A stretch of 64,000 bases of DNA from Eledone cirrhosa (lineage: Eukaryota): the NCBI GenBank assembly GCA_964016885.1, contig OZ024742.1:271188001-271252000 (forward strand), in the 5' to 3' direction. Positions within the stretch are counted from its first letter, which is position 1, and the number at the start of each line of letters is the position of its first letter. A model generated the notes under the pieces. That model did not search any database. It saw only the letters and a list, made by a program, of their open reading frames with translations, and was not told the DNA's origin. The position numbers and the translations under genes are program-made. Positions 4,047 through 60,225 of the stretch are shown here, piece after piece.

Positions 4047-4974
4047 TAGAAACACACAGATACATGCGGACACACACATATACATGAATGCATCCACACC
4101 CAACCGTGTGTTAAGGGTCCCAACCTCACCGATGTTGCTCAATGAATGACTGGGACAGACCAATTCGGTTGAACTAGACTGAACCAGTATCAGAGTTAAA
4201 AATACATTATGAAGAGAGAAGAAACCTTTAGATATAATTAATAATAAAATGTATCATACCTAACCTGCTCCTAGATTCCTCGACTACGTAGTTTCGTGGC
4301 ATAAACAAAAACAATACATCATAAAGATATAGAGTCCCTGAGAGGTCTGCCGACTTATCAAGAGGATACCTCATTTTACTAGTCTCAAGAACGCGTCTAC
4401 ACGACGTGAGAAAGAATCCCAAAAGGCGGAGGGGGAGATAGTCACGCGATATAACGGTCGAGAAACAGTGCTAAGCATCCTATAACCCCGAAGAAAATAC
4501 CACAGAGGCGGAGGGGGTATTTATATCGAAGCCGTAGAAGAGGTGGTGAAGGGGGCGAGAAGTATGAGTAATGGCAGCTTTCCAGCAGTCACCACACTTC
4601 AAAGATCACTCAGCCAGAGGGAGTTATTAACAATATATTTAGAAACACACAGATACATGCGGACACACACATATACATGAATGCATCCACATCCAACCGT
4701 GAGTTAATGGTGCCAAACTCACCGATGTTGCTCAATGAATGACTGGGACAGAACAATTCGGTTGAACTAGACTGAACCAGTATCAGAGTTAAAAATACAT
4801 TATGAAGAGAGAAGAAACATTTAGATATAATTAGTAATAAAATGTATCATACCTAAACTGCTCCTAGATTCCTCGACTACGTAGTTTCGTGGCATAAACA
4901 AAAAACAATACATCATAAAGATATAGAGTCCCTGCGAGGTCTGCCGACTTATCAAGAGGATACCTCATTTTACT
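4047..4974 (-). repeat. Partial tandem dimer (~593-bp period) carrying a variant HHR in each copy
   Basis: 4047-4382 is repeated at ~4639-4974 with few changes, and the whole is flanked by (TA)n. Confidence 0.85.
4277..4366 (-). ncRNA. Hammerhead ribozyme, U3-A8 core variant, long helix II insertion (second copy 4870-4960)
   Basis: Minus strand: TCCTC-TTGATAA-GTCGGCA...TGCCAC-GAA-ACTACGTAGT-C-GAGGA. Confidence 0.7.
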
Positions 4975-8359: not shown

Positions 8360-8415
8360 TTTTAATATAGAGAGATTCTACAGGACTAGAACTGTTTCAT
8401 TCTTTAGAAATCATC

Positions 8416-8464
8416 GATTCCTGATGATTTCTAAAGAATGAAACAGTTCTAGTCCTGTAGAATC
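8416..8464 (+). ncRNA. Compact type I hammerhead ribozyme inside an inverted duplication 8357-8482 (degenerate homologue 57137-57185, minus)
   Basis: GATTC-CTGATGA-TTTCTAAAGAAT-GAA-ACAG(ttctagtc)CTGT-A-GAATC. Confidence 0.75.
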
Positions 8465-8561
8465 TCATCTATATTAAAACTTTTATATTCTGCAATGTTT
8501 TGAGTACCTTACTTACTGTGGTTACCTCCTATTCAACCCGGAATAACGTATATATATATAT

Positions 8562-8949: not shown

Positions 8950-8969
8950 ATATATATGTATATATATAT

Positions 8970-10442
8970 AAATTGAAACAAAATGAAAACGAAATTTCAT
9001 TTCTCACTCTTAGTATGGCACTTACTTAAATGTAAGTATGCATGTATACGTACATACATATATGTATACAGACGTACACTAGCATGCACATATATATATA
9101 TATATATATACATATATATATACATATGCATACAGGTACACATACATATATGCACGTATCAGTTTAGCGGCGCTTATTATAACGTCGCTTTGTTCGTTTG
9201 TAAACAAACTGAACAGCCTGAATTTATGCCATACGGTGTTAAGGCAACCACGTCACCTTTTTGTTCAACACTGACACAGGAACGATGTACTAGTTTCAAG
9301 CTTGTTAGCTATCATCAGCACCGTTTACCCATCTGCCAGATAGTTGAACGTTCGAAAGTATATACTTTCCTTATGAAAATTAACGGCTGAGCAGCCTAAT
9401 TTGCATATTGAGTGAGTTAAATCGGTCAGGCATACCGAAAACGATAAATTGTATATGCATGCTACTATACGTCTGTATACATATATGTATGTACGTATAC
9501 ATGCATACTTACATTTAAGTAAGTGCCATACTAAGAGTGAGAAATGAAATTTCGTTTTCATTTTGTTTCAATTTATCGTTTTCGGTATGCCTGACCGATT
9601 TAACTCACTCAATATGCAAATTAGGCTGCTCAGCCGTTAATTTTCATAAGGAAAGTATATACTTTCGAACGTTCAACTATCTGGCAGTTGGGTAAACGGT
9701 GCTGATGATAGCTAACAAGCTTGAAACTAGTACATCGTTCCTGTGTCAGTGTTGAACAAAAAGGTGACGTGGTTGCCTTAACACCGTATAGCATAAATTC
9801 AGGCTGTTCAGTTTGTTTACAAACGAACAAAGCGACGTTATAATAAGCGCCGTTAAACTGATACGTGCATATATGTATGTGTACCTGTATGCATATGTAT
9901 ATATATATGTATATAAATATATATATATGCATGCTACTATACGTCTGTATACATATACATGCATACTTACATTTAAGTAAGTGCCATACTAAGAGTGAGA
10001 AATGAAATTTCGTTTTCATTTTGCTTCAATTTATCGTTTTCAGTATGCCTGACCGATTTAACTCACTCAATATGCAAATTAGGCTGCTCAGCCGTTAATT
10101 TTCATAAGGAAAGTATATACTTTCGAACGTTCAACTATCTGGCAGATGGGTAAACGGTGCTGATGATAGCTAACAAGCTTGAAACTAGTACATCGTTCCT
10201 GTGTCAGTGTTGAACAAAAACGTGACGTGGTTGCCTTAACACCGTATGGCATAAATTCAGGCTGTTCAGTTTGTTTACAAACGAACAAAGCGACGTTATA
10301 ATAAGCGCCGTTAAACTGATACGTGCATATATGTATGTGTACCTGTATGCATATGTATATATATATGTATATATATATATATATAATCATGCTACTATAC
10401 GTCTGTATACATATATGTATGTACGTATACATGCATACTTAC

Positions 10443-10446
<4 letters not shown>
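8970..10446. repeat. Retrozyme family B array (~458-bp unit, ~3.2 units, divergent inversion at ~9451)
   Basis: One minus-strand unit (HHR 9281-9325) is followed by two plus-strand units (HHR 9695-9739 and 10153-10197). Flanked by (TA)n. Confidence 0.9.
9695..9739 (+). ncRNA. Type I hammerhead ribozyme, family B (also 10153-10197 +, 9281-9325 -)
   Basis: AACGGTG-CTGATGA-TAGC(TAACAA)GCTT-GAA-AC(TA)GT-A-CATCGTT, with a GUA cleavage triplet. Helix I extends via GTTCAAC/GTTGAAC and CTGGCA/TGTCAG. Confidence 0.88.
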
Positions 10447-10502
<56 letters not shown>

Positions 10503-10504
<2 letters not shown>

Positions 10505-13338
10505 TTGGATTTCTGATTGGACTGTCACCTCGAAACTGGATACCAACCTGGACTACACCTGAACTTCCACCATGAATTATTTCATATCCATGAAATTTTC
10601 TTCTGATTCTTGCATTTAAATATTCCCCGACTCTGTACCATTTTCCCTCTACTTCAATCGTCTTACACCACCTTTTTCTCACCCGTCTATATTTCACTTC
10701 CACCCCAGTACCTTCAACATTCCCAATCACAAATCTTTTCTCCGCTAGCTCCATTCTGCCCTCAAGCGGTTCCTTCAACCTCTCCCCCACCTATATGCAT
10801 CCAATTCTCCCTGCATCACTCTAACCTCATCTTCACCAAAACACGATACAACAGTCACATCACATTCTTAAGTCGTTGTATCCATCGCCACCTCATTCCC
10901 GGCGGTTTCCGCCTCAAGTTTCACTCCACCTCTTACTCTCCCCCCACCACTGAGCCCATCCTCCCCCACACCTCTCGGCAGCACATGCGGGCGATCATTC
11001 AATCAACTCTCGCCCATATCTGTCCTCTCGACCGAGATCTCCCCAAGGCCTACCTCCATCTCTACTCCACTTGCCACCCTTTCCTCGCCGAATCCCTTAT
11101 CCAATTCATCCTTTATCTCAATCGGCTTCTTTTTAATTTCCTCACTTCCGCCAAAAAACATAAACTCGAATCTCTCCGATCGCGGCTGCCGTCACCACCC
11201 ATACTCACATCACCTCCAACCCTCACCCCTCTATCCAGTCACCTACCACTGAATCTACGCAAGTTTTGCCCAACCAACTTGACCCCTCCACCTCCGCATT
11301 TTTCACCACCTCACGTCCCTGCACTGTAGTCACCAACCCCAACCCTACCACACCCCGAAGCTGTGCGCTCCCTCCTCGCTCGTGGTTTGCGTTTTATACC
11401 AACCACATCTACCTGCTACAGGTTCCGCACACGTGCCGAGATTGAATGGTTCTTCCGTCGACTAAAGCTGAAAGCTGTTTTTCACAAAACGCTATCATCG
11501 ACACAGTCGGATGACTCCACTCATCTCAGTCGCCGGCAATCACATTGGACACCAAGCTCTGCCCAGTTCGGCACCCTCGACTCCTTTGTCGATACTTCCC
11601 GGCTTACTGTGAATCGGTTCCTTTTCCACCAGCATTCTCGTGGCTCTAACATCACGCGAACTGAGCTCTCCGCTCTTCGCAACATTCGGTGTCGCGAATA
11701 CATTGTCATGAAACCCGCTGACAAAGGTGGCGCTGGCTGTGGTGGTTTGGAGCGCTGACCTCTATAGGGCTGAGGCTCTCCGCCAGCTTCACAATACCCT
11801 TTTTTACCGCCCTTTAACATCCGACCCCACTCCTGGCTATCAACAACTCGTGTCCTCCACCATCCACGAGCTCATCTTCTCCTCTCACTTACCCCCACAG
11901 CCACCAACCTTATTGTACGCACCCCTCGCGCACTAACCATCTATTTCCTCCCCAAAATACACAAACAAATAATCCTGGCCGCCCCATCGTTTCTGTGTGC
12001 AACTGCCCCAACGAGATAATTTCTGAATATTTAGACACCATCCTCGCCTCGTTGGTCAGCAATCTCCCGTGCCAGAGCCACGATACAAATGCCTTTAGAA
12101 TCTTCAACTCGTTCTCCTTCCCACCTGGTCCCTCACTCCTTCTCTTTACCAGCATTTTTTTAGATTTAGCCCCTACCCCTTGCCCAGCACTACTCCGTCT
12201 GGCTGAGCTTGTTCTCCCCCTTAATGGATATCCTTTTACCAGCAGATCTCTTGGTTAGCGATGGGAACTAGAATGGTTCCAAACTATGCCAAATTGTTTG
12301 TTGGCTACGTCGAAGCCCATATCTTCTCCCAGTACGCTGGACCGACTCCTTAGCTATACAGTTGTTATATCGACGACTGTATCGGCGCCACCTCTCTATC
12401 ACGAGAATAGCTCGACTGTTTTCTTTCTTTTGTCCAATCTTTCTATCCTCCTCTCAATTTCACCACCTACGTCTCCGATTCTTCTGTCGTTTTTCTAGTT
12501 AACTATCTATCTATTAATCACTCGCACTACACCCTCTCTACTTCCATATCCATTAAACCAACAGACTCGCAGTCTTATCTCGATTCACCTCCTCCCATCC
12601 AACCCACACAAAACACTCCATACCCTATTCCCAATTCTTCCGTCTTTGTCGACTCTGTAGCCAGGACGACAATTTCGAAACCCATTCCCTTCGCATGGCT
12701 TCTAGCTTCATCTGGCGTGGGTACCACCCCCGCCCCTTGATCCAAGCAGCTCTCAAACGCACCCGTGAAACTGACCGTACCAGAGCTCTTTCAACTGACC
12801 CCCGCCCTCCCAACACACGTGTTACTTTCCCTCTCACCTACCACCGCATCACCCTACCACTCCGGCGACATATCCTCCGTTACTTCCGTATCCTCTCTTC
12901 TGACCCCGTCACTTCTCGCTTTTTTCCAAACCCACCCATTACTGCTTTTATATTTTTGGATACTCCTGTCGCCCGTCATTTCTGTTCTCCTGGTCATTCT
13001 TCCCTACATGTTTCAGTCCTGGGTGTCCTTTAATATCATGGATCACAGGCCTCGCGCACTAGGAATGAACTAAGTCTGATTCGCCGCCTTGGGTCTTATT
13101 CTCCTCTTGGACTCAAATCACCTCCCCGATTTCTCTAATACCCCGTCCATTATCACACTCCTTGATTCCTATCGATTTCACTTAATCATTTGCAGCTTCT
13201 CTTACCACTAATACATGCCGATACACACACTTATATTAACATACATTTGCTCATAGCTTCGTACTTACATGCACACACACTCTATTACACACATATACAC
13301 ACACATTTCTTCTTCGCCTCGTACGGACCTGTAATAAC

Positions 13339-13398
<60 letters not shown>

Positions 13399-13830
13399 AC
13401 CCACACACACACACATACACACACATACACACATACACACACACACACACACAGAGATACAGACACATACACAAACACATGATTACGCACGTGCTCAAGT
13501 AGAGCTCTTTTTAAAAAGGTTTTGTTTTCCATTTCAGGCAGACGCGCTCATGCACTTTTCTAAAAGAATATAATACACAAAACGACAGCACCAATAGTTT
13601 TCCAAGAGATGTCAACATGAATGGACCTGTTATTTTTATCTAAAGAAATGTTTTCCAATTCCATCCCACCGGTCCCCTCAATCTATTTTATTTCTCATTC
13701 TTTCTTCTGATGAAGGACTAGCGTCCGAAACATTACGACCCTCTTCCTGCTATATCAAGCATTAACCTAATATATACATTCCATATACTGTACCGATTGT
13801 GTTGTTATTTCTGTTTACCTTTTACACACA
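10503..13830 (+). mobile_element. Decayed Penelope-like retroelement (RT pseudogene), 3' UTR with CA microsatellite and HHR-like core at 13707-13731
   Basis: Frameshifted motifs include GLRFIPT, KPADKGG-AVVVW, PGRPIVS, MGT..PNYA, YIDD, YSQFFRLCRLCS and PVARHF. The 3' end has CTGATGA-A-GGAC(TAGC)GTCC-GAAAC. Confidence 0.85.
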
Positions 13831-13845
13831 TATATATATATATAT

Positions 13846-14173
13846 ACTAACTCACTCGATATGCAAATTAGGCTGCTCAGCCGTTAAAATGGATAAGGAA
13901 AGTATATTCTTTCAAACGTTCAATCATCTGGCAGAAAGGTATACGATGCTGACGATAGCTAATAAGCTTGAAACTAGTACATCGTTCCTGTGTTAGTGTT
14001 GACCAAAGGGGCGACGATGGTTGCCTGAACAATGTACGGCGTAATTCGGGCTGTTTGTCTGTTTACAAACAAATAAACCGAACATTATAATAAATGTTCG
14101 GTAAACCGATACGTACATGTATATATATATATGTGTGCATGTATATATGTATGCATGTATATATACATACATG

Positions 14174-14226
<53 letters not shown>

Positions 14227-14406
14227 GTATCGGTTTACCGAACATTTATTATAATGTTCGGTTTGTTTGTTTGTAAACAAACAAATATATACATACTACT
14301 GTACATCTGTATACATATATGTATGTACGTATACATACATACTTACATTTAAGTATCAGCCGTATTAAGAGTTAGAAATGAAATTTCGTTTCATTCTATT
14401 CCATTT
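13846..14406 (+). mobile_element. Solo retrozyme family B monomer with intact HHR (13943-13985)
   Basis: ATGCAAAT at 13861, then ACGATG-CTGACGA-TAGC(TAATAA)GCTT-GAA-AC(TA)GT-A-CATCGT. There is an internal inverted duplication (14062-14118 / 14221-14278). The copy ends in (TA)n. Confidence 0.85.
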
Positions 14407-19169: not shown

Positions 19170-19371
19170 TGTGTGTGTGTGTGTATGTATATGTTTGTGT
19201 ATGTTTGTATATGTGTATATTTATGTGTGTGTGAGTGTATGTGAAGGTGTCTGTAGACACCTGAAATATAGCTTAAAAGAAAACATGACAATAAGGAGAG
19301 GCACCCAATATTTGAACTGGTTTATAGAATTATCTCTGCGTTTGTCACTCTAAGTAACCATCTTACAGTAG

Positions 19372-20324
19372 AATGTATATATATACATACATAGAGTAGT
19401 ATGTATATATATATATACATACATGCACACATATATATACATGTATGTATGGATTCACCGAACATTTATTATAATGCTCGGTTTGTTTGTAAACAATCGT
19501 CCCGAATTAAGCCGTACAGTGTTTAGCAACCATCGTTGCCCTTTTGTTCAACACTGACAAAGGAACGATGTACTAGTTTCATGCTTATTAGCTATTGTTA
19601 GCTCCGTGTACCTTCATGCCAGATGATTGAACGTCTGAAAGTATTTACTTACCTTATGCATATTAACGGCAACCTAATTTGCATATCGAGTGAGTTAATC
19701 GGCCGGATGCACCGAGAACTATAAATGGAAAAAATGAAACGAAATGTCATGTGTCACTCTTACTACGGCTGTTACTTAAATATAAGTATGTAAACGTACA
19801 TACATATATGTATACAGACGTACAGTAGTATGTATATGTATACATACATGCACATATATATATATATATGTACGTATGGATTCACCGAACATTTATTATA
19901 ATAGAGTGAGAAATTAACTCACTCGATATGCATATTAGGCTGCTCAGCCGTTAATATGCATAAGGAAAGTATATACTTTCAGACGTTCAATCATCTGGCA
20001 CGAAGGTATACAGTGTTGGCGATATCTAAAAATGCTTGAAACTAGTACATCTTTCCTTTGTCAGTGTTGAACAATAGGGCAACGATGGTTGCTAAACACT
20101 GTGCGGCTTAATTCGGGATGTTTGTTTAGAAACAAACCGAGCATTATAATAAGTGTTCGGTGAATCCATACGTACATGTATATATATGTGTGCATGTACG
20201 TATATATATATATATATATACATACTACTGTACGTCTGTATACATATATGTATGTACGTATACATACTTATATTTAAGTAACAGCCGTAATAAGAATGAG
20301 AAATGAAATTTCGTTTCATTTTTT

Positions 20325-20328
<4 letters not shown>
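19372..20328. mobile_element. Two degenerate retrozyme family B units in divergent orientation (HHR cores mutated)
   Basis: A minus unit spans ~19372-19900 and a plus unit ~19914-20328. Both retain GAAACTAGTACATC, but the CTGATGA core is mutated (CTAACAA, TTGGCGA). Confidence 0.8.
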
Positions 20329-20402
<74 letters not shown>

Positions 20403-20874: not shown

Positions 20875-20926
<52 letters not shown>

Positions 20927-22127
20927 AATTAAATTAAAAATGTACATCCACATATGTATACTGAAATACTAGTATGCATATGAATACACACACGTGTACA
21001 TATGTAGATGTACCGAGTTTTTCACTGGACACTTTACTGTGAGTGTCCAGCTATTCTGTATGTAAACACACAGACAAACCGGTTTTTAGAGTCATACTGG
21101 TTTTCGAGGAAACACCTTTCCTCTATTCTCCAGAAAGCCAGACAAGGAATATTGGACTAGTTTCGATGTTGTTACATCTCATCAGCAATATTTACCTATC
21201 TTCCGGCCTTTCTAGAGAATCGTAAAAGAACATATCGTTATATGCTTTTTCTATGAAAATTAGTAGTGGGCAGACTAATTTGCATAGAGCGTGAGTACGT
21301 ACCGGTTCAGCGGAGACGATAAAAACAAATAACGAAACGAAATTAAATTTCGTTTCGTTTGTAACTCACTTTTGTATGACTGACGCTTAAACAATTAAAT
21401 TAAAAATGTACATCCACATATGTATACTGAAATACTAGTATGCATATGAATACACACACGTGTACGTATGTAGATGTACCGAGTTTTTCACTGGACACTT
21501 TACTGTGAGTGTCCAGCTATTCTGTATGTAAACACACAGACAAACCGGTTTTTAGAGTCATACTGGTTTTCGAGGAAACACCTTTCCTCTATTCTCCAGA
21601 AAGCCAGACAAGGAATATTGGACTAGTTTCGATGTTGTTACATCTCATCAGCAATATTTACCTATCTTCCGGCCTTTCTAGAGAATCGTAAAAGAACATA
21701 TCGTTATATGCTTTTTCTATGAAAATTAGTAGTGGGCAGACTAATTTGCATAGAGCGTGAGTACGTACCGGTTCAGCGGAGACGATAAAAACAAATAACG
21801 AAACGAAATTAAATTTCGTTTCGTTTGTAACTCACTTTTGTATGACTGACGCTTAAACAATTAAATTAAAAATGTACATCCACATATGTATACTGAAATA
21901 CTAGTATGCATATGAATACACACACGTGTACATATGTAGATGTACCGAGTTTTTCACTGGACACTTTACTGTGAGTGTCCAGCTATTCTGTATGTAAACA
22001 CACATTTAATTGTAAACACACATTTAATTGTTTAAGCGTCAGTCATACAAAAGTGAGTTACAAACGAAACGAAATTTAATTTCGTTTCGTTATTTGTTTT
22101 TATCGTCTCCGCTGAACCGGTACGTAC

Positions 22128-22185
22128 TCACGCTCTATGCAAATTAGTCTGCCCACTACTAATTTTCATAGAAAAAGCATATAAC
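22128..22185 (+). promoter_or_regulatory. Putative snRNA-type upstream promoter block (octamer + PSE-like + TATA-like) in each unit
   Basis: ATGCAAAT at 22137-22144 is followed by TAATTTTCATAGAAAAAGCATATA. Family B conserves this as ATGCAAAT...TAATTTTCATAAGGAAAGTATATA while most of the rest of the unit diverges. Confidence 0.5.
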
Positions 22186-22229
22186 GATATGTTCTTTTAC
22201 GATTCTCTAGAAAGGCCGGAAGATAGGTA

Positions 22230-22274
22230 AATATTGCTGATGAGATGTAACAACATCGAAACTAGTCCAATATT
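22230..22274 (+). ncRNA. Type I hammerhead ribozyme, family A (representative copy)
   Basis: AATATTG-CTGATGA-GATGT(AACA)ACATC-GAA-AC(TA)GT-C-CAATATT. The GUC cleavage site is predicted after 22267. Helix I extends to 22203-22296. Confidence 0.92.
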
Positions 22275-25200
22275 CCTTGTCTGGCTTTCTGGAGAATAGA
22301 GGAAAGGTGTTTCCTCGAAAACCAGTATGACTCTAAAAACCGGTTTGTCTGTGTGTTTACATACAGAATAGCTGGACACTCACAGTAAAGTGTCCAGTGA
22401 AAAACTCGGTACATCTACATATGTACACGTGTGTGTATTCATATGCATACTAGTATTTCAGTATACATATGTGGATGTACATTTTTAATTTAATTGTTTA
22501 AGCGTCAGTCATACAAAAGTGAGTTACAAACGAAACGAAATTTAATTTCGTTTCGTTATTTGTTTTTATCGTCTCCGCTGAACCGGTACGTACTCACGCT
22601 CTATGCAAATTAGTCTGCCCACTACTAATTTTCATAGAAAAAGCATATAACGATATGTTCTTTTACGATTCTCTAGAAAGGCCGGAAGATAGGTAAATAT
22701 TGCTGATGAGATGTAACAACATCGAAACTAGTCCAATATTCCTTGTCTGGCTTTCTGGAGAATAGAGGAAAGGTGTTTCCTCGAAAACCAGTATGACTCT
22801 AAAAACCGGTTTGTCTGTGTGTTTACATACAGAATAGCTGGACACTCACAGTAAAGTGTCCAGTGAAAAACTCGGTACATCTACATATGTACACGTGTGT
22901 GTATTCATATGCATACTAGTATTTCAGTATACATATGTGGATGTACATTTTTAATTTAATTGTTTAAGCGTCAGTCATACAAAAGTGAGTTACAAACGAA
23001 ACGAAATTTAATTTCGTTTCGTTATTTGTTTTTATCGTCTCCGCTGAACCGGTACGTACTCACGCTCTATGCAAATTAGTCTGCCCACTACTAATTTTCA
23101 TAGAAAAAGCATATAACGATATGTTCTTTTACGATTCTCTAGAAAGGCCGGAAGATAGGTAAATATTGCTGATGAGATGTAACAACATCGAAACTAGTCC
23201 AATATTCCTTGTCTGGCTTTCTGGAGAATAGAGGAAAGGTGTTTCCTCGAAAACCAGTATGACTCTAAAAACCGGTTTGTCTGTGTGTTTACATACAGAA
23301 TAGCTGGACACTCACAGTAAATGTCCAGTGAAAAACTCGGTACATCTACATATGTACACGTGTGTGTATTCATATGCATACTAGTATTTCAGTATACATA
23401 TGTGGATGTACATTTTTAATTTAATTGTTTAAGCGTCAGTCATACAAAAGTGAGTTACAAACGAAACGAAATTTAATTTCGTTTCGTTATTTGTTTTTAT
23501 CGTCTCCGCTGAACCGGTACGTACTCACGCTCTATGCAAATTAGTCTGCCCACTACTAATTTTCATAGAAAAAGCATATAACGATATGTTCTTTTACGAT
23601 TCTCTAGAAAGGCCGGAAGATAGGTAAATATTGCTGATGAGATGTAACAACATCGAAACTAGTCCAATATTCCTTGTCTGGCTTTCTGGAGAATAGAGGA
23701 AAGGTGTTTCCTCGAAAACCAGTATGACTCTAAAAACCGGTTTGTCTGTGTGTTTACATACAGAATAGCTGGACACTCACAGTAAAGTGTCCAGTGAAAA
23801 ACTCGGTACATCTACATATGTACACGTGTGTGTATTCATATGCATACTAGTATTTCAGTATACATATGTGGATGTACATTTTTAATTTAATTGTTTAAGC
23901 GTCAGTCATACAAAAGTGAGTTACAAACGAAACGAAATTTAATTTCGTTTCGTTATTTGTTTTTATCGTCTCCGCTGAACCGGTACGTACTCACGCTCTA
24001 TGCAAATTAGTCTGCCCACTACTAATTTTCATAGAAAAAGCATATAACGATATGTTCTTTTACGATTCTCTAGAAAGGCCGGAAGATAGGTAAATATTGC
24101 TGATGAGATGTAACAACATCGAAACTAGTCCAATATTCCTTGTCTGGCTTTCTGGAGAATAGAGGAAAGGTGTTTCCTCGAAAACCAGTATGACTCTAAA
24201 AACCGGTTTGTCTGTGTGTTTACATACAGAATAGCTGGACACTCACAGTAAAGTGTCCAGTGAAAAACTCGGTACATCTACATATGTACACGTGTGTGTA
24301 TTCATATGCATACTAGTATTTCAGTATACATATGTGGATGTACATTTTTAATTTAATTGTTTAAGCGTCAGTCATACAAAAGTGAGTTACAAACGAAACG
24401 AAATTTAATTTCGTTTCGTTATTTGTTTTTATCGTCTCCGCTGAACCGGTACGTACTCACGCTCTATGCAAATTAGTCTGCCCACTACTAATTTTCATAG
24501 AAAAAGCATATAACGATATGTTCTTTTACGATTCTCTAGAAAGGCCGGAAGATAGGTAAATATTGCTGATGAGATGTAACAACATCGAAACTAGTCCAAT
24601 ATTCCTTGTCTGGCTTTCTGGAGAATAGAGGAAAGGTGTTTCCTCGAAAACCAGTATGACTCTAAAAACCGGTTTGTCTGTGTGTTTACATACAGAATAG
24701 CTGGACACTCACAGTAAAGTGTCCAGTGAAAAACTCGGTACATCTACATATGTACACGTGTGTGTATTCATATGCATACTAGTATTTCAGTATACATATG
24801 TGGATGTACATTTTTAATTTAATTGTTTAAGCGTCAGTCATACAAAAGTGAGTTACAAACGAAACGAAATTTAATTTCGTTTCGTTATTTGTTTTTATCG
24901 TCTCCGCTGAACCGGTACGTACTCACGCTCTATGCAAATTAGTCTGCCCACTACTAATTTTCATAGAAAAAGCATATAACGATATGTTCTTTTACGATTC
25001 TCTAGAAAGGCCGGAAGATAGGTAAATATTGCTGATGAGATGTAACAACATCGAAACTAGTCCAATATTCCTTGTCTGGCTTTCTGGAGAATAGAGGAAA
25101 GGTGTTTCCTCGAAAACCAGTATGACTCTAAAAACCGGTTTGTCTGTGTGTTTACATACAGAATAGCTGGACACTCACAGTAAAGTGTCCAGTGAAAAAC

Positions 25201-26805
25201 TCGGTACATCTACATATGTACACGTGTGTGTATTCATATGCATACTAGTATTTCAGTATACATATGTGGATGTACATTTTTAATTTAATTGTTTAAGCGT
25301 CAGTCATACAAAAGTGAGTTACAAACGAAACGAAATTTAATTTCGTTTCGTTATTTGTTTTTATCGTCTCCGCTGAACCGGTACATACTCACGCTCTATG
25401 CAAATTAGTCTGCCCACTACTAATTTTCATAGAAAAAGCATATAACGATATGTTCTTTTACGATTCTCTAGAAAGGCCGGAAGATAGGTAAATATTGCTG
25501 ATGAGATGTAACAACATCGAAACTAGTCCAATATTCCTTGTCTGGCTTTCTGGAGAATAGAGGAAAGGTGTTTCCTCGAAAACCAGTATGACTCTAAAAA
25601 CCGGTTTGTCTGTGTGTTTACATACAGAATAGCTGGACACTCACAGTAAAGTGTCCAGTGAAAAACTCGGTACATCTACATATGTACACGTGTGTGTATT
25701 CATATGCATACTAGTATTTCAGTATACATATGTGGATGTACATTTTTAATTTAATTGTTTAAGCGTCAGTCATACAAAAGTGAGTTACAAACGAAACGAA
25801 ATTTAATTTCGTTTCGTTATTTGTTTTTATCGTCTCCGCTGAACCGGTACGTACTCACGCTCTATGCAAATTAGTCTGCCCACTACTAATTTTCATAGAA
25901 AAAGCATATAACGATATGTTCTTTTACGATTCTCTAGAAAGGCCGGAAGATAGGTAAATATTGCTGATGAGATGTAACAACATCGAAACTAGTCCAATAT
26001 TCCTTGTCTGGCTTTCTGGAGAATAGAGGAAAGGTGTTTCCTCGAAAACCAGTATGACTCTAAAAACCGGTTTGTCTGTGTGTTTACATACAGAATAGCT
26101 GGACACTCACAGTAAAGTGTCCAGTGAAAAACTCGGTACATCTACATATGTACACGTGTGTGTATTCATATGCATACTAGTATTTCAGTATACATATGTG
26201 GATGTACATTTTTAATTTAATTGTTTAAGCGTCAGTCATACAAAAGTGAGTTACAAACGAAACGAAATTTAATTTCGTTTCGTTATTTGTTTTTATCGTC
26301 TCCGCTGAACCGGTACGTACTCACGCTCTATGCAAATTAGTCTGCCCACTACTAATTTTCATAGAAAAAGCATATAACGATATGTTCTTTTACGATTCTC
26401 TAGAAAGGCCGGAAGATAGGTAAATATTGCTGATGAGATGTAACAACATCGAAACTAGTCCAATATTCCTTGTCTGGCTTTCTGGAGAATAGAGGAAAGG
26501 TGTTTCCTCGAAAACCAGTATGACTCTAAAAACCGGTTTGTCTGTGTGTTTACATACAGAATAGCTGGACACTCACAGTAAAGTGTCCAGTGAAAAACTC
26601 GGTACATCTACATATGTACACGTGTGTGTATTCATATGCATACTAGTATTTCAGTATACATATGTGGATGTACATTTTTAATTTAATTGTTTAAGCGTCA
26701 GTCATACAAAAGTGAGTTACAAACGAAACGAAATTTAATTTCGTTTCGTTATTTGTTTTTATATATATATACATATATATATATACATATATATATACAT
26801 ATATG

Positions 26806-45207: not shown

Positions 45208-48200
45208 TTGAATATCCTTAATTTTCGAGATAATATCTCTTCTTCAGAAGGATGTAAAGGGGTTAATCCAGTGTTCTAATTAGCTTTGCAAGTCAGAAAT
45301 AGAATGAAATGTATATACTCTTTCCTGTCAGCATGAATTGGATTAACTCCTTTACTTCCACTGAAGAAGAGATATTATCTCGAAAATTAAGGATATTCAA
45401 ATAAATTTATGGTAAAAGACTAATTCTCAGCGATATCTTTTGCATTTGTATTTAATTTCTATATCCATACCTGCATAGTTCTGGCCTTCTAACTCCAAAC
45501 GTTTATATTTCACTACGCAATGTTTCAAGTAAACTACAATTTCCTTCTTTCCTTACGCCTCAGCCAGGCCCAGTTTACAACTGTAAAGAAACTCTTCCAG
45601 CTATCTGAAAGGCACGCCAAAGCTGGCTGAGAAATAAACTTCCTCAAACGGTGCCTGAATAACAATATCATCCCCAAAACTATCAAAATCCTGCACCTAC
45701 CAACATGCTTCAAATCGCCAGGCCTCAAACGTTCACTTAGCTACATACACAAACACTGCCTAAGAAAACTTCTAATACAACTACACCTCACGCTACGACA
45801 ACACATACCGACAATTTCCAGCCTAGTACCACAACTCGCTGAAAACCCAGAACCTCTGCTCAGAGTAATTTCCACCGCTATAGACAAATCGCCGAGATTA
45901 CGAGAAACACCGCCTAAAGCAAAAATTTCTCAAACTCAGCAGGGCTGACCGTCCTAACAACAATCCAACTCTAAGCTCCAAAAGAGGCGAACAAGACGGT
46001 ACCAACATCGAACCTAGCGGTGCCCCGACCAACAACACACCTGACACAAAACACCTCGTCACAGAATTGACAGGATCCCTCTCCCGAGATGAACTAGACC
46101 TCCTCGGCCTGGGTCCCAAGTTCATATTAAAACAGAGATTGGACGACAAATTATGGCTCGACATAGAAAAGAATTTCTGTCGGGCCACCTACCAGCTAAA
46201 ATGGATATCGACCCTCGGCAACAAAAACAGGGAATCTAACACATCCAGATTCCCGATATACAAACGGGATCACCCACTCTGTTCACCGCCTGCCACCGCA
46301 AGCTGGAAGAAAAATTATCGAGGTTAAACATTCCGTATTTGACATCTGACGGAAACAGAATAAGATAGCCCCAAAATACTCCAGGACGCAACAACTCGCC
46401 CTGAAGATCCTGCGGAATAGGGAACTATTAAACTTACCATCTGACAAAGGTCAAGACTTTTGTGTCATCTCTCAAGCCACATACAACAACCTAGCCTTTG
46501 AACACTTAAGCGACAACGAACTACATACAGAGGTCCTGGACATAACTGCAGACCAGATCTAAAAACAGGCCAACTCCATCTGGTTTGACATCTGTAGTAG
46601 AAGACAACTCCCAAATAAATGTAAGTCCAATTACACCACTAGTAATAGAAGACTGCCCAATTTCTATCACCTCATCAAGACCCACAAGAATAGTACTAAG
46701 ACACGAATAAGACCCATCGTCTCTAGCATAGAAGGGCCTCTATACAAAATCTCCTGGCTCCTCTCCCAGGTCCTCAAGCCTCTACTCTCCACCTTTCCCG
46801 GACATGGCAGTAGCTCCGATGAGGTCATACGTAGACTACACCAACTCCAGCCAGAACAACTTAAACACAATAGATACGCCTTTAGCCTCGACGTTGTCTC
46901 CCTCTATACTACAGTTCCCGCTCATCCAGCTGTCGATTTATTGACGGAATGCGTGGTCGCCGAAGACCTCCACTGCTACGGCCTCCATCCGACCGACATA
47001 AATCAGCTTTTGTCCTTCACAGTGAACAACACGTACTTCACCTTCGACCACCACACATACAGACAGACAATGGGATTACCCATAGGATCTAGCCTATCGG
47101 GCCTGCTGGCCATCACTTATATGAATCAGCTGGAATGTCGAGCCCTCTACATCTGCCATACCTATACCTTATTCACCCTATATGTAGATGACATACTCAT
47201 CCTTTCATCATCCCGTGGGTCTTATACGTGTCTTAGTACTATTCTTGTGGGTCTTGATGAGGTGATAGAAAGTGGGCAGTATGCCATTTCTAGTGGTGTA
47301 ATTGGACTTACATGACATTCTCCAGCATGGACGCACATATAAAGTTAAGCATGGAAGACCCGGATGACCGCGGATCCCAATCCCTATTGGACTTCCAACT
47401 CAGGGTTACAGAGGAAGGCGACATCCACATCTGCTTCTATAAAAAAGCCGCAAGCAGGGACCTCTTCGTACATTTCAAATCAGCCCTCCCAGTCAGCGCT
47501 AAATTCAGATACATAAGGAACGAACTAACACGTATCCGGAACAAATGCACCGACACAAGAAACCGAGATACACACATCACACATTTCCTGGAAGTACTTG
47601 AACTGACTGAACGGATACCCGACCTCCACCACGAACCGTGCCAGAACCAACAGAGGACACCACACTCGATGCACTAACAGGTGCTTCCTGAAGCTCCCAA
47701 ACGTCAGCGACGAAACAACAACAGCCATCCGCAGAGCTATCAGACGAGAAGGACTACGTATCCAGCTAGCCCACTCAGGACCTTCTCTACGCGGACAGAT
47801 AACCAAGAGACACTCCACCAGACATGACAACCGTTGCACGCTCGTCAACTGCCCCATCAACGGCACAGATCTATGGCACCAGGCTTACGTCGTATACAGA
47901 TTAGAGTACGAGCAATTTCTACATAGGAAGCACCACCAGACCACTTCACATTAGAATAAAAGAACACCTCGACACTAATGCTTCCTCATTTAAGAAACAC
48001 CTAGTGAAATGCAAAAACACCGACAAAGACATAATAGGTAGGATAGAAGCTAAGGAAAGAAACCTCGGCAATCTTAGAATTAAAGAAGCACTAATTATAG
48101 ACAAAACGCAACCATAAATCAATAACAGACTAGAACTCAACGCCCAATGTTTAACATAATAGAGCACCTAGCCCCACACTTACACCTCCACGTATCTTGA

Positions 48201-49803: not shown

Positions 49804-49808
<5 letters not shown>

Positions 49809-50323
49809 AAAGAATAGAGGTGTAACACACAAGTTATTATATATTGGTAAACGGAATAGAAAATGCTGACAAATTGTTCACAGTTGAAAAATGGTTTAAT
49901 TAGGAATAAAAGAGTATTAGTGATTGTATGGGTTAGTATTCAGTTGTGGTTTTAAGTTTTTATGTTTTTACCGGTTGCGCATTTCTAAATGCTTTTCAAA
50001 AATAATTTTGAGATAGAGTGTCCGTGCTGTTTGCTCTGATCTGATTAGTTTTGGGAATTCTACCTGTTTTTATGTTTAAAAAATGGCTCCAGCGTTATTT
50101 TTGTGTTGCAAAAATGCTTGTGGTCAAAACAATTTTGATTGGTCGGTAGAGGTCATGTAAATGTAAAAAGTTGATTTTGCGCCAAGACTGTTTTTATGTT
50201 AAAATGTTAGAAAAGTGGCTCCAGCAAAAATTATGGTCAAAACAATTTTGATTGGTCGGTAGAGGTCATGTGGATAAAAAATTGGTTTTGCGCCAAGATT
50301 GAGAGATGACTCTTTCACAACAA

Positions 50324-50367
<44 letters not shown>

Positions 50368-50436
50368 TAGTAGTAGTAAGGTGTTCGATGCTGCGACAAT
50401 AGCCACCAGCGATGTGTGTCAAATGGCTATTAAGAT

Positions 50437-50478
<42 letters not shown>

Positions 50479-50771
50479 ACATACACACAGCAGAGTCATT
50501 CGAAGGTCAAAAGATATTGTTCAGCTTTTGTCTTATACGGAGAAGTGCGTGTGTGTGTGTGTGTGTGTATAAGTCTCTTTGTATGTTGATGTACGCGTGT
50601 GCATGTGTTTGTGCATACATGTGTGTGCGTGTGTGTGTGCGTGTGTGGGTGGACCAGTATTTTTTTCCCCCCTGGTAAAATGGTGTACATTATTCGATTT
50701 TTTCAGGAAAATCGGTTCTCTTAATAGAACATCAACAATCTTAACAATAAAAGGTGTGAAATGATATTCAC

Positions 50772-50816
<45 letters not shown>

Positions 50817-52787
50817 TTTCACTACATATATACATATATATATATACATATACACATACACACACATGCACATATATTTTTTTGTATTGCACCATAGAGC
50901 ATGTGTGTTTACGTGTGTCATTGTGTTTATATGTGGGTAGAGATGTGTGCTGATGTAGGTATGTATGTTGACGTGTGTATGTTGTGGGTTCGTCTTAGGG
51001 AGAAGTGTTTAGACGGGGTCCGTATTTGTTAATGAAGTAAGATTCCTTGCTGATGCGCTGGGTGTGGGTGGCATTATCTTTAAATTTGTAGAGGGGAAAG
51101 ATTCTGAAGTTGGGATGATTTGGGGCGGCGCAGGTATCAATGTGTTCACTCAGTGGTATTTTCCTGTATTCCCGTATTTTAATTTGGGATCTATGGACAG
51201 TCATGCGTTGGCGGAGGCTGTTTTTGGTCTGGCCTATGTATTGTTCTCGACAACCTGAACAAGTTAATACATATATTAAATTTTCCGATGCACATGTGAA
51301 ATTGTGTTTTACTATAAAACGTTGTCCATCTTTGAAATAGAATTCCGAACCCTCTATTAGGTTGATGCAAATGCCACAGTTGGGTCTATCGCATTTTTTT
51401 ACTGTGGGTTTCGTTGTTGTGGTTGGCAGTACTTTGGCATGTGTTAAGATGTTTTTCATTGACTTGGATTGTCTTTTGCTCTTTATGATATCGTGTGTTC
51501 GTAGAATTTGGTTCATTCTATGGTCCTTTTTCAATACAGGGATGTTCTGGAGGATGGTGTCAAAGGCCTCGTTGTTGAGGGGGTTGTGTGTGGAGATGTA
51601 TGGAAGAGCTTTTAGTTTTGGTTGATTTACTTTAGGGTGTCTAAGGTCCTGGGTACTGAGTTTTAGGGCACGTTGGATTCCATTGTCAATTAGTGATGCA
51701 GGGTAGTCCCTGCCTATGAGTGTGTCCTTTAGTTCTTGTAGCCGTAAGTAGCAGATGTTTTTATTGGAGACTATAGTACAGATTCTCTTGGCTAAGTTGT
51801 AGGGAATATTAATTTTAACGTGTCTAGGGTGGCAAGAGTTGAAGGGGAGGTATTGCTTGGAGTCTGTGGGCTTGTAGTATATGTCTGTTTCTATTTTTTT
51901 GTTATGGATCTTAATGAGGATGTCGAGGAAGGGGAGTTGTTGATGGCTGTATTCCATCGTGAAGTTAATATTTGTGTTGAGCCCATTTATAAGGGTGTGA
52001 AATTCTTTAAGTTTTCCGATGTTTTCGTGCCAAAGGATGAAGCAGTCATCAAGATATCGCTTCCAGTTCCTTTCAATGTGTAAGTGGAGGGTGTTTCCAA
52101 ATTTGTTTAGGACTTTAGTGTAGAGGGTGATTTCCAGGTATCCCATGACTAGATTGGCATACGTAGGGGCTGTTTTCGTTCCCATAGCGGTCCCAGATTT
52201 CTGCCTGTAGGGTTTGTTATTGAAAACGAAGTAATTGTTCTCCAAGATAAATTTGAGTCCCTCTATCACGAATTCTTTTTTGATGCGTTGTGGGAGTTCA
52301 TTGTGGAAGTTATCCAGCCAGAATTGGATAGCTTCTATTCCTAGGTTGTGGGGGATGTTGGAGTATAGGTTGACTACATCGAACGTCACTAGTAGGGTTT
52401 GTTCAGAAAGTGGCATATTAGGGAGGTGATTGAGCATATCTAGGTCGTCCCTTATATAGCTTTTGATGTGCTTGAGGAAGGGTTTGAGAAGGGTATCAAT
52501 GAAGTTGCTAAGACGGTGCGTTTCGCAAGCGGGGCCTGCTATTATTGGTCTTAATTTGAGATCATTGGGTGAGGGGACATTGATGACTATGTCAGATCTG
52601 AGCAAACAGCACGGACACTCTATCTCAAAATTATTTTTGAAAAGCATTTAGAAATGCGCAACCGGTAAAAACATAAAAACTTAAAACCACAACTGATACT
52701 AACCCATACAATCACTAATACTCTTTTATTCCTAATTAAACCATTTTTCAACTGTGAACAATTTGTCAGCATTTTCTATTCCGTTTA

Positions 52788-52795
<8 letters not shown>
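49804..52795 (-). mobile_element. 5'-truncated Neptune-like PLE with inverted pLTR segment (52592-52795) at its 5' end
   Basis: An RT+EN ORF, a 3' UTR of ~1.2 kb, and 52592-52795 as the reverse complement of ~49840-50043. Both ends lie in (TA)n. Confidence 0.9.
50995..52590 (-). CDS. Penelope-like reverse transcriptase + GIY-YIG endonuclease (uninterrupted but N-terminally truncated)
   Basis: LRPIIAG, TFDVVNLYSNIP, QKSGTAMGTKTAPTYAN, WKRYLDD, FLDI, YLPFNSCHP, CDRPNCGIC and LIYVLTCSGCREQYIGQT. The first ~18 aa of the listed ORF come from the inverted pLTR. Confidence 0.9.
   Translation of the reverse strand: MVINVPSPNDLKLRPIIAGPACETHRLSNFIDTLLKPFLKHIKSYIRDDLDMLNHLPNMPLSEQTLLVTFDVVNLYSNIPHNLGIEAIQFWLDNFHNELPQRIKKEFVIEGLKFILENNYFVFNNKPYRQKSGTAMGTKTAPTYANLVMGYLEITLYTKVLNKFGNTLHLHIERNWKRYLDDCFILWHENIGKLKEFHTLINGLNTNINFTMEYSHQQLPFLDILIKIHNKKIETDIYYKPTDSKQYLPFNSCHPRHVKINIPYNLAKRICTIVSNKNICYLRLQELKDTLIGRDYPASLIDNGIQRALKLSTQDLRHPKVNQPKLKALPYISTHNPLNNEAFDTILQNIPVLKKDHRMNQILRTHDIIKSKRQSKSMKNILTHAKVLPTTTTKPTVKKCDRPNCGICINLIEGSEFYFKDGQRFIVKHNFTCASENLIYVLTCSGCREQYIGQTKNSLRQRMTVHRSQIKIREYRKIPLSEHIDTCAAPNHPNFRIFPLYKFKDNATHTQRISKESYFINKYGPRLNTSP

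Positions 52796-59933: not shown

Positions 59934-60225
<292 letters not shown>

What the first reader, a model, noticed from the sequence alone, without database searches (positions are those of the whole stretch)
13846..14406. Insertions end at a fixed hairpin + T-tract, not at the ribozyme cut, implying a circular template that regenerates the promoter
Seen: four family B ends (8970, 14406, 20328, ~60043) and the right end of array A (26762) stop within ~10-15 nt after a shared GAAAT..TTCGTTTC self-complementary motif and T-rich tract, then run into (TA)n. In A this motif is the 14-bp inverted repeat AACGAAACGAAATT-T-AATTTCGTTTCGTT (22063-22091). Monomers at 13846 and 19914 begin ~15 nt before the octamer and have the HHR in the middle. 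Inference: reverse transcription primes at a defined hairpin and copies across the cleavage/ligation junction. That requires a circular or multimeric RNA and restores the upstream promoter in the new copy, much as an LTR does.
Basis: inference. Interest (0 to 1): 0.72.

Follow-up and report, generated by a model that had tools for sequence, protein, structure and literature searches.

The report
Retrozyme insertions end at Penelope tail
These ribozyme-carrying repeats all stop at one exact base just past a small hairpin, the same mark that a true Penelope-type jumping gene leaves in this window, so they were likely copied from RNA into TA repeats by such an enzyme: a published idea, here seen at single-base detail.

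Summary
Family B (458-nt unit) and family A (466 nt) are homologous hammerhead repeats.

**Fixed 3' end.** Of 100 B hairpins taken in coordinate order, 51 run on into the next tandem unit and 49 stop at the same spot (..CAAYTTAT) and enter (TA)n. Family A shows the same: 9,545 motifs, of which 7,212 are tandem, 2,094 enter (TA)n and 239 do other things.

- 50 of 80 anchored insertions have two arms, joined head to head.
- The second arm ends at a second fixed site, 59 nt (B) or 69 nt (A) upstream, so it lacks the hairpin block.
- 5' ends are scattered.
- A real Penelope-like element in this window (RT plus GIY-YIG) shows the same tail / no-tail ends in (TA)n.

So the "hairpin + T-tract end" is the known Penelope "tail" footprint.

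**Across the cut site.** 295 of 297 ribozyme cores run through it cleanly. Multi-unit arms therefore need an RNA template continuous past the start site. Circle versus linear multimer is not resolved, because no RNA data were available. The promoter idea is untested.

Earlier notes of this scan report the same architecture for other families on other DNA of this genome.

The parts
8968..9451 (-). Family B, class I arm (about 1.05 units). Its 3' end, with hairpin tail, sits at 8968-8970 and abuts (TA)n.
9452..10447 (+). Family B, inverted partner arm (about 2.1 units). It ends at the class II site ..ACATTTA|(TA)n at 10447 and lacks the tail.
9600..10057 (+). Reference unit B (458 nt). Landmarks: octamer at unit 15-22; CUGAUGA at 103; predicted cut after 133; internal TA/TG microsatellite at about 262-361; class II site 376|377; hairpin 400-418; class I site 435|436. 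Unit 436-458 is present only in tandem junctions.
9976..10034 (+). The 59-nt 'tail' module of B (unit 377-435): hairpin plus U-rich tract ending in AUUUAU.
13846..14406 (+). Old B-like single copy (75-80% identical to the reference unit), unit 2 to 435, with a class I end in (TA)n. It carries an internal inverted duplication of unit about 213-270 at 14124-14282. It is a separate insertion from the Penelope-like remnant on its left.
19364..19870 (-). Old B-like inverted arm (about 1.1 units). It runs through a tandem junction at about 19700-19790.
19904..20332 (+). Old B-like class I arm, joined to the inverted arm through the 12-nt filler AGAGTGAGAAAT. Class I end at about 20328-20332 in (TA)n. 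The ribozyme core has decayed (TTGGCGA).
60043..60202 (-). 5'-truncated B-like class I arm (unit about 282-435). Its 3' end abuts (TA)n.
20922..22010 (-). Family A, inverted arm (2.3 units). Its outer end is ..AATTGTTTA|(TA)n, the class II site, without the tail.
22022..26762 (+). Family A, class I arm (10.2 units of 466 nt, 99% alike). It ends ..TTTGTTTTTAT|(TA)n at 26762. It holds 10 of the 12 A ribozyme matches (HH9, 38.9 bits).
22035..22103 (+). The 69-nt tail module of A. The 13-14 bp hairpin is at 22063-22091, followed by AUUUGUUUUUAU.
49805..52647 (-). PLE-W, a 5'-truncated Penelope-like element. The ORF at 50995-52647 has RVT_1 plus a C-terminal GIY-YIG domain. The 3' UTR follows, then a 39-nt tail (49843-49805) that ends in (TA)n.
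52597..52791 (+). Inverted arm of the same PLE-W insertion. It ends ..CCGTTTACCAA|(TA)n without the tail.
10503..13845 (+). PLE-X, a degenerate Penelope-like element of another family (27-35% amino-acid identity to PLE-W over 11330-12757). Its 3' end lies in the same (TA)n tract that holds the B copies.

Best explanation
Families A and B are hammerhead-carrying non-LTR retrozymes whose insertions end at one fixed base 11-17 nt past a conserved hairpin inside (TA)n. They were likely written there by the target-primed reverse transcription of a Penelope-like element, and the hairpin-plus-T-tract block is that machinery's 'tail'.

**Shown**
- A sharp class I end.
- A second sharp end (class II), 59 nt (B) or 69 nt (A) upstream, on an inverted partner arm.
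- Both ends lie in (TA)n.
- 5' junctions are scattered and carry short microhomologies.
- The two arms of one locus are near-identical.
- Copies pass the ribozyme cut site seamlessly.
- A bona fide RT plus GIY-YIG element in the window has the same tail / no-tail ends.

**Inferred**
- The endonuclease breaks (TA)n.
- One DNA 3' end primes cDNA on the RNA at the AUUUAU just 3' of the hairpin module.
- The other end primes at the similar AUUUA just 5' of the module.
- The two cDNAs are joined head to head.

Multi-unit arms contain the junction that lies beyond the start site. The RNA was therefore continuous there: most likely the small circle known for retrozymes in other animals, copied round and round, or else an uncut multimer.

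An arm of about 0.9 kb or more would carry the conserved octamer block plus two ribozymes. Such an arm could make new unit-length RNA.
For: **3' peak.** B 49 of 49 non-tandem ends. A 2,094 ends, against 239 'other'.

**Second end and pairing.**
- In 59 unselected loci, 26 of 26 inverted partners end at unit 350-381.
- In 80 loci anchored on class I ends, 50 are two-armed. 42 of the 46 evaluable partner arms end at unit 350-380.
- 34 of those 46 read directly as ..ATACTTAYAT followed by ATATAT or TTATAT.

**One event per locus.** Divergence is 0.9% within an arm, 1.8% between the two arms of a locus and 8.0% between loci (medians).

**Tail-only class I arms.** These are what two primings on a single RNA predict. 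They make up 6 of 50 two-armed and 3 of 27 single-armed insertions.

**Same footprint in a real Penelope-like element.**
- PLE-W has RVT_1 plus GIY-YIG and is young and very abundant (19,273 candidates, 98-100% identity).
- Its ends come with or without the tail, all in (TA)n.
- 5 of 7 loci with both ends visible have one of each.

**Ribozyme.** Helices I and II covary between A and B (5 compensated pairs).

**RNA folds.** The unit RNAs fold far better than shuffled sequence (z -6.2 and -9.2). In both predicted folds the class I site sits in an unpaired U-rich stretch between the tail hairpin and a small hairpin formed by the junction segment.

**Literature.**
- Penelope footprint: PMC8557442, passages.
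- circRNA template and Penelope as candidate mobiliser: PMC7229834, passages and Discussion.
- Retrozymes as Penelope derivatives: preprint 10.64898/2026.07.22.740005, abstract and sections 14 and 16.
Against: - No autonomous partner with a homologous tail or ribozyme region was found. PLE-W and PLE-X share no sequence with units A or B.
- Rfam finds no hammerhead in a full PLE-W copy.
- The tails here are 59-69 nt, against the 30-40 bp described in print.
- There is no RNA evidence at all. Circles, RNA ends and expression were not seen.
- There is a mild excess of 5' ends 3-18 nt downstream of the cut site: 13 of 127 against 5.3 expected. This could mean that some templates were cut linear RNAs, not circles.
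- One arm breaks off exactly at the cut (L129).
- Array homogeneity could partly come from unequal crossing-over after insertion.
- Both samples were drawn through hairpin or class I motifs, so insertions that lack a class I end were not sampled.
Confidence: 0.75

Rival explanations
1. The strict first-reader model. The template must be a circular RNA. Copying across the ligation junction restores an upstream promoter (the octamer block), so every new copy is self-transcribing, as with an LTR.
For: - Copies cross the cut site without scars: 295 of 297.
- Arms reach more than 9 units. The two arms of a locus are near-identical.
- The octamer and TAATTTTCATA blocks are 80% conserved between A and B, as high as the ribozyme core.
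- circRNAs are the main retrozyme RNA in coral, mussel and axolotl (PMC7229834).
Against: - No RNA data exist for this organism.
- An uncut linear multimer gives the same DNA.
- The ribozyme type is expected to be poorly active as a single motif (PMC4209133), so single copies that contain the cut site need no circle.
- Promoter function is untested, and the octamer is also half of a predicted RNA stem.
- 41 of 77 evaluable class I arms are shorter than one unit and could not make unit-length RNA.
- There is no 5' peak at the position where the two window 'monomers' start.
Confidence: 0.4
2. The 3' end is inherited, not chosen. Templates are linear read-through transcripts of donor arrays that run from the last unit into the donor's flanking (TA)n. 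The (UA)n tail anneals to a nicked (TA)n target, as with R2 or tailed LINEs, so every daughter repeats the donor's end.
For: - All ends abut (TA)n.
- Microhomology makes the exact junction ambiguous by 1-4 nt, and two registers are seen at each site.
- There is a mild excess of 5' ends just downstream of the ribozyme.
Against: - It does not explain why one tailed end and one tailless end are paired in the same insertion from near-identical sequence (26 of 26; 42 of 46).
- It does not explain tail-only arms that abut the rest of the unit in inverted order.
- It does not explain why the two sites share the motif AUUUA (B) or GUUU(UU)A (A) on either side of the hairpin.
- Class I arms shorter than one unit show no pile-up at the cut site.
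Confidence: 0.15
3. A DNA-level process. Either a Helitron/Helentron-like rolling-circle transposon (3' hairpin about 10-15 nt before the end, insertion at AT), or an ordinary satellite spread by recombination.
For: - There is a hairpin 11-17 nt before a fixed 3' end, a TA target, tandem copies and no target duplication visible.
- The 2026 preprint notes that the retrozyme distribution also resembles that of Helitron-like elements.
Against: - 5' ends are scattered, not fixed.
- There are no TC/CTRR termini.
- Head-to-head arms with a second fixed end are not a Helitron trait.
- The same ends are made by an RT plus GIY-YIG element in the same window.
- The hairpin of B contains G.U-type pairs that only pair in the RNA-sense strand.
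- The ribozyme helices covary.
Confidence: 0.04

Closest known systems
Metazoan non-LTR retrozymes (Cervera and de la Pena 2020, PMC7229834; passages and Discussion read)
   Same: - Tandem units of a few hundred nt with low GC (35-36%).
- Type I hammerhead with a short, palindromic helix III.
- No LTR, PBS or PPT.
- Unit RNA predicted to be highly self-paired.
- The proposed route is the same: a primed circRNA copied into tandem cDNA, with Penelope as the candidate enzyme.
   Different: - Units of 458-466 nt are above the 170-400 nt range quoted there.
- No RNA or circle evidence here.
- The passages I read do not map insertion ends. Here the start sites, the two-armed layout and the (TA)n target are defined to the base.
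Penelope-like elements and their insertion footprint (Craig et al. 2021, PMC8557442; Cervera and de la Pena 2014, PMC4209133; passages read)
   Same: - 5' truncation and partial tandems.
- An adjacent inverted 5'-truncated copy.
- A short extension ('tail') at one end only.
- (TA)n preference.
- A hammerhead with a palindromic helix III.
- PLE-W in this window shows all the structural marks.
   Different: - A and B encode no RT or EN.
- Tails of 59-69 nt, against the 30-40 bp in print (PLE-W: 39 nt).
- No sequence homology to the two Penelope-like families examined.
Non-LTR retrozymes as non-autonomous Penelope derivatives (Li, Clavereau, Pollet 2026 preprint 10.64898/2026.07.22.740005; abstract and sections 14 and 16 read)
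   Same: The same conclusion about dependence on Penelope-like elements.
   Different: Their evidence is co-occurrence and pLTR sequence similarity in vertebrates. Here the evidence is the insertion footprint in an invertebrate-like genome, and sequence similarity to a Penelope-like element was not found.
L1 twin priming (recalled from memory, Ostertag and Kazazian 2001; no paper read)
   Same: Inverted plus direct segments of one RNA, made from the two DNA ends of one break. The tail-only arms match its prediction.
   Different: The internal priming site here is fixed (unit 372-376), not variable. Both arms can be many units long and overlap in content.

Membership tests
Metazoan non-LTR retrozyme | Type I hammerhead with a conserved core and paired helices I and II | tested here: met
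   - A: 12 matches to Rfam HH9 at 38.9 bits, E 7e-7, below the gathering score of 52.
- B: not found by Rfam at E<=10, but it has the CUGAUGA..GAAAC core and a U.U at 10.1/11.1.
- 5 pairs in helices I and II keep pairing through changes on both sides between A and B.
Metazoan non-LTR retrozyme | Short tandem units, low GC, no LTR/PBS/PPT, no coding capacity | tested here: met
   - Units of 458 and 466 nt in tandem; GC 0.35 and 0.36.
- No terminal repeats other than the tandem itself.
- Only incidental stop-to-stop frames of about 131-137 aa, which were not scanned against Pfam.
Metazoan non-LTR retrozyme | Expressed as unit-length linear and circular RNA | not testable with these tools
   No RNA run is listed for the stretch. 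The runs that were laid are contigs of unknown kind.
Metazoan non-LTR retrozyme | Unit RNA predicted to be stable and highly self-paired | tested here: met
   MFE -132.5 (B) and -151.8 (A) kcal/mol, z -6.2 and -9.2 against shuffles.
Penelope-type insertion footprint | Fixed 3' end with variable 5' truncation | tested here: met
Penelope-type insertion footprint | Partial tandems, and an adjacent inverted 5'-truncated copy | tested here: met
   - 51 of 100 hairpins are followed by a tandem junction.
- 50 of 80 anchored insertions have an abutting inverted arm.
Penelope-type insertion footprint | Tail extension present at one end only | tested here: met
   26 of 26 and 42 of 46 partner arms lack the tail. 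Tail length is 59-69 nt, against 30-40 bp in print.
Penelope-type insertion footprint | Microsatellite, here (TA)n, target bias | tested here: met
   Both kinds of end abut (TA)n. The same holds for PLE-W.
Penelope-like element (as a member) | Encodes a Penelope RT, with or without GIY-YIG EN | tested here: not met
   Units A and B have no such ORF. They are at most non-autonomous dependants.
Non-autonomous derivative of a specific Penelope-like family | Sequence homology of the unit or tail to that family's pLTR or 3' end | tested here: not met
   - No BLAST similarity to PLE-W outside microsatellites.
- The PLE-X 3' region stops where the B-like copy begins.
- Other families were not examined.
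Helitron/Helentron | Fixed 5' TC and 3' CTRR termini, Rep/helicase partner | tested here: not met
   Ends are ..TTTAT, 5' ends are scattered. The Rep/helicase partner was not searched for.
Plant LTR retrozyme | Type III hammerheads in LTRs, PBS and PPT, 4-bp TSD | tested here: not met
   Type I motif, no LTRs.

The most novel reading that the evidence does not exclude
Two Penelope reverse transcriptases (or one dimer) sit on the hairpin module of one small circular retrozyme RNA. The two DNA ends of a cut (TA)n repeat prime them at two fixed AUUUA sites, one on each side of the hairpin. Each then runs round the circle a variable number of times. This single picture would explain the Penelope tail, the pseudo-LTR tandems and the inverted copies. 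It would also give the first base-level map of where a Penelope RT starts.
Probability: 0.3. Interest if true: 0.75.

Novelty: new member of a known kind. Interest (0 to 1): 0.5.

Why it matters
How animal retrozymes get back into DNA, and how Penelope-like elements make their odd tandem, inverted and "tail" structures, are both open questions. The papers read here say so (PMC8557442 Discussion passages; PMC7229834 Discussion; the 2026 preprint).

These families offer thousands of young insertions with two start sites defined to the base, flanking a conserved hairpin, beside a very young and abundant RT plus GIY-YIG element. That makes a direct test possible: a defined RNA, circular or linear, a defined (TA)n target and a candidate enzyme.

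The finding itself does not overturn anything.

Tried and rejected
- **Rfam.** At gathering thresholds there is nothing in the window. The B ribozyme is not detected even at E<=10. The many 'miRNA' rows are TA/TG microsatellite artefacts.
- **RNA evidence.** No RNA holder is listed. Four runs of unknown kind were laid as contigs only. They gave short pieces of the unit in X1 (5,676 laid) and X6 (31 laid), 1 in X5 and none in X4. This gives no information on RNA ends, circles or expression.
It appeared with a one-unit BLAST query and vanished with a trimer query. It was an edge artefact.
- **Arm 5' ends marking a transcription start at unit 50-120.** This was suggested by the first 26 pairs (note). 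It was not reproduced in 80 further loci: unit 51-133 holds 6 of 50 and 10 of 50 ends.
- **The B-like copy at 13846 as the 3' pseudo-LTR of the neighbouring PLE-X.** Rejected. All 40 other scored genomic matches to the PLE-X 3' region stop at query 341-366, where the B copy starts.
- **Search for the autonomous partner.**
  - No homology of A or B to PLE-W.
  - tblastn of the PLE-W protein against about 0.94 Mb of fetched loci found only unlinked RT/EN remnants.
  - The lone tails in L130 and L145 are not attached to a coding element.
- **Candidate hammerhead in the PLE-X 3' region (about 13705).** It has the core words but no helix III or helix I pairing. Dropped.
- **Per-position diversity among 71 B units.** The sample is dominated by one subfamily (mean 2%), so it is uninformative on constraint.
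- **Covariation for the predicted three-way junction around the start site.** The stems are invariant among the copies seen, so there is no evidence either way.

Full report
**What is there.**
- The window lies in a 3.0-Gb animal-type genome and is rich in (TA)n.
- Family B is a 458-nt unit. It stands in tandem at 9492-10415, with an inverted copy at 8968-9451. Older copies lie at 13846-14406, 19364-20332 and 60043-60202.
- Family A is a 466-nt unit. There are 2.3 copies on the minus strand at 20922-22004 and 10.2 copies on the plus strand at 22022-26762.
- A and B are homologous (76% column identity).
- The best-conserved blocks are the octamer region, a TAATTTTCATA block and the hammerhead core, each about 80%.
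- Both carry a type I hammerhead: CUGAUGA, a helix II hairpin, GAAAC, and the palindrome ACUAGU before the predicted cut.
- Rfam scores the A motif at 38.9 bits against HH9, below the gathering score of 52 (12 matches). It does not detect the B motif at all.
- Helices I and II keep pairing through five two-sided changes between A and B.
- A short helix III with a palindromic loop is the usual metazoan form, said to work as a dimer in tandem transcripts (PMC4209133, passages).

**Checking the observation.**
- I fixed a reference unit (window 9600-10057) and mapped copies on it.
- The 22-nt hairpin motif of B occurs 12,315 times in the genome; the reversed control occurs 0 times.
- I fetched the first 100 occurrences by coordinate, which fall in 59 loci.
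  - 51 are followed by the tandem junction (..TTAT|CGTTTTCGGTATGCCTGACCGATTTAACTCACTC).
  - 48 are followed by (TA)n directly after ..CAAYTTAT.
  - 1 is followed by TA-rich DNA at the same spot.
  - None ends anywhere else.
- For family A, a 26-mer covering the 3' half of the hairpin and the T-tract occurs 9,545 times. It is followed by CG (tandem) 7,212 times, by AT 2,094 times and by anything else 239 times.
I call it the class I end.

- Many arms end at a second fixed place..CATACTTACAT(TTA)|(TA)n, unit 372-376. That is 59 nt upstream of the class I end, so these arms lack the hairpin block. I call this the class II end.
- Array A does the same. Its inverted left arm ends ..AATTGTTTA|(TA)n, 69 nt upstream of the class I site.
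- The two sites look alike: ACAUUUA|AG and CAAUUUAU|CG in B; UUGUUUA|AG and GUUUUUAU|CG in A.
- The two kinds of end are paired. The typical insertion is two arms joined head to head, with the 3' ends pointing outward: one class I, one class II.
  - In the 59 unselected loci, 26 class I arms have an abutting inverted arm, and all 26 partners end at unit 350-381.
  - In 80 more loci anchored on the class I end of the window's own subfamily (867 such ends in the genome; loci), 50 are two-armed. 42 of the 46 evaluable partners end at unit 350-380; the other four end at 48, 132, 323 and 396.
  - 34 of the 46 can be read directly as ..ATACTTAYAT followed by ATATAT (21) or TTATAT (13).
- All three multi-unit insertions in the window have this form.

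**One event per locus.** Over unit 140-250, median divergence is as follows:

| Comparison | Median divergence | Pairs |
|---|---|---|
| Within an arm | 0.9% | 47 |
| Between the two arms of a locus | 1.8% | 30 (many at 0) |
| Between loci | 8.0% | 3,160 |

Both arms therefore come from one template lineage, which points to a single event.

**5' ends.**
- Junction coordinates are scattered over the unit.
- There is no peak at the position where the window's two "monomers" begin. An apparent one was a BLAST edge artefact.
- Two features stand out.
  - Nine class I arms consist of the tail alone (5' end at unit 369-381): 6 of 50 two-armed and 3 of 27 single-armed. In the two-armed cases the rest of the unit follows in inverted order. 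This is what two primings on a single RNA predict.
  - There is a mild excess of 5' ends at unit 134-152, just downstream of the predicted cut after 133. It is 13 of 127 ends against 5.3 expected, with 5 each in the two neighbouring 19-nt bins. None is exactly at 134.
- Junctions show 2-6 nt of microhomology.
- 5 of 50 junctions are near-palindromic.
- The mild excess may be reverse transcriptase pausing at the folded ribozyme, or the use of some cut RNAs. I cannot tell which.

**Across the cut.**
- Of 297 ribozyme cores in 139 loci, 274 have the identical 22 nt across the cut site.
- 295 have no indel within 3 nt of it.
- One has a 1-nt deletion two bases after it.
- One breaks off at the site.
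- 47 of 80 class I arms and 39 of 50 inverted arms span at least one cut site.
- There is thus no sign of end-to-end template jumps with added bases. The template was either uncut RNA or precisely religated RNA.

**What it is.**
- These are the marks listed for Penelope-like elements: heavy 5' truncation, partial tandems, an adjacent inverted 5'-truncated copy, a short "tail" found at one end only, and (TA)n preference (PMC8557442, passages).
- The window supplies its own control. [quoted passage not shown]
- Its family (PLE-W) is very young and abundant: 19,273 first-look candidates, the 150 scored 98-100% identical, open frames mostly up to 784 aa with a few of 956-962.
- The window copy ends ..CCGTTTACCAA plus a 39-nt tail plus (TA)n. 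Its inverted arm ends ..CCGTTTACCAA|(TA)n without the tail.
- In 30 further loci the pre-tail motif occurs 31 times. It comes either with the tail then (TA)n (9 exact, plus several mutated) or directly before (TA)n (12 exact, plus variants). 5 of 7 loci with both ends visible have one of each.
- A and B fit the published class of animal non-LTR retrozymes. Penelope-like elements have been proposed as the mobilisers of that class (PMC7229834 Discussion; preprint 10.64898/2026.07.22.740005).

**Circle or not.**
- Half of all hairpins are followed by the junction segment 436-458. The RNA behind multi-unit arms therefore continued past the start site.
- Predicted folds of both unit RNAs are much more stable than shuffles (z -6.2 and -9.2).
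- In both, the class I site sits in an unpaired U-rich stretch between the tail hairpin and a small hairpin made by the junction segment. All of this is enclosed by a GAGUGAG/CUCACUC-type stem that needs sequence from both sides of the start site. This is prediction only; the stems do not vary among the copies seen.
- Long arms (over 4.4 kb), near-identical arms and scar-free cut sites fit rolling synthesis on a small circle. They also fit an uncut multimer.
- No RNA data could be had.
- I put the circle at roughly even odds.
- The rival in which the end is simply inherited from a donor's (TA)n flank does not explain the obligatory pairing of a tailed end with a tailless end.

**Promoter claim.**
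- It is untested.
- The octamer block is strongly conserved. It is also half of an inverted repeat that pairs in the predicted RNA.
- Only arms of about 0.9 kb or more would hold that block plus two ribozymes.
- 41 of 77 evaluable class I arms are shorter than one unit.

**Limits.**
- The autonomous partner was not found. PLE-W and a second, degenerate element (PLE-X, 10503-13845) share no sequence with A or B.
- Both samples were drawn through the hairpin or class I motif.
- BLAST end coordinates inside the internal microsatellite are imprecise.
- Searches of the held library for Penelope with twin priming, and for retrozymes with target-primed reverse transcription, found no paper that maps such ends. 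Subscription journals are not covered.
- Earlier notes of this scan describe the same two-armed, two-site architecture for other retrozyme families elsewhere in this genome. I reached it here independently, before reading them, and then confirmed it on larger samples.

Noticed in passing
window 49805-52791; L090-L122: PLE-W is a very young, massively amplified Penelope-like family (RT plus C-terminal GIY-YIG). It has 19,273 first-look candidates, and the 150 scored are 98-100% identical. There is a 784-aa ORF preceded by a 341-455-aa ORF in full copies. Rfam detects no hammerhead in a full copy. Its 39-nt tail has the same layout as the A and B tails: a small GUGU/ACAC hairpin, then a pyrimidine-rich tract, then the end.
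   Followed up: partly
window 10503-13845: PLE-X is a degenerate Penelope-like element of another family (27-35% amino-acid identity to PLE-W). It has 6,914 first-look candidates for its 3' region. It is nested in the same ancestral (TA)n tract as two B insertions.
   Followed up: partly
L039, L043, L071, L076, L078: Tail-to-tail palindromes. Two B arms converge and overlap at the tail hairpin, as if synthesis had turned round at the hairpin loop.
   Followed up: no
window 14124-14282: The old B-like copy carries an inverted duplication of unit about 213-270, placed inside its internal (TA)n tract.
   Followed up: no
L130 (oriented 4320-4394): A lone 61-nt B tail with a 12-nt internal duplication, flanked by (TA)n on both sides. 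This is an insertion truncated exactly at the tail boundary.
   Followed up: partly
L145 (reverse complement, about 690-740 and 780-1030): Next to a B tail lies another hammerhead-like motif with a long helix II (CTGATGAGGTCATAGCCATTCCATGGCTATCATCGAAA). There is also a G-rich palindromic element around a (TA)n tract that contains a 15-nt B fragment.
   Followed up: no
L054, L056, L059, L088 flanks: A recurrent foreign terminus in the same (TA)n tracts: (TA)n AGAAAGTGAGG(T)TTTTTTTACAAAATGAAAAATAAC. It is probably the end of yet another (TA)n-seeking family.
   Followed up: no
window 46563-47315 (+): A 250-aa open frame with RVT_1 (E 1.3e-11). It belongs to a further retroelement that was not classified.
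   Followed up: no
window 8360-8480: A near-perfect palindrome of about 120 nt (MITE-like foldback) just left of the B insertion.
   Followed up: no
window 54488-54733 and 50140-50330: A 124-nt tandem duplication inside the PLE-W 3' UTR, flanked by (CA)n tracts.
   Followed up: no
unit B 241-252 (window 9840-9851): A 12-nt segment (ATAATAAGCGCC) is hypervariable among 71 B units: minor-allele fraction 0.27, against a mean of 0.02.
   Followed up: no
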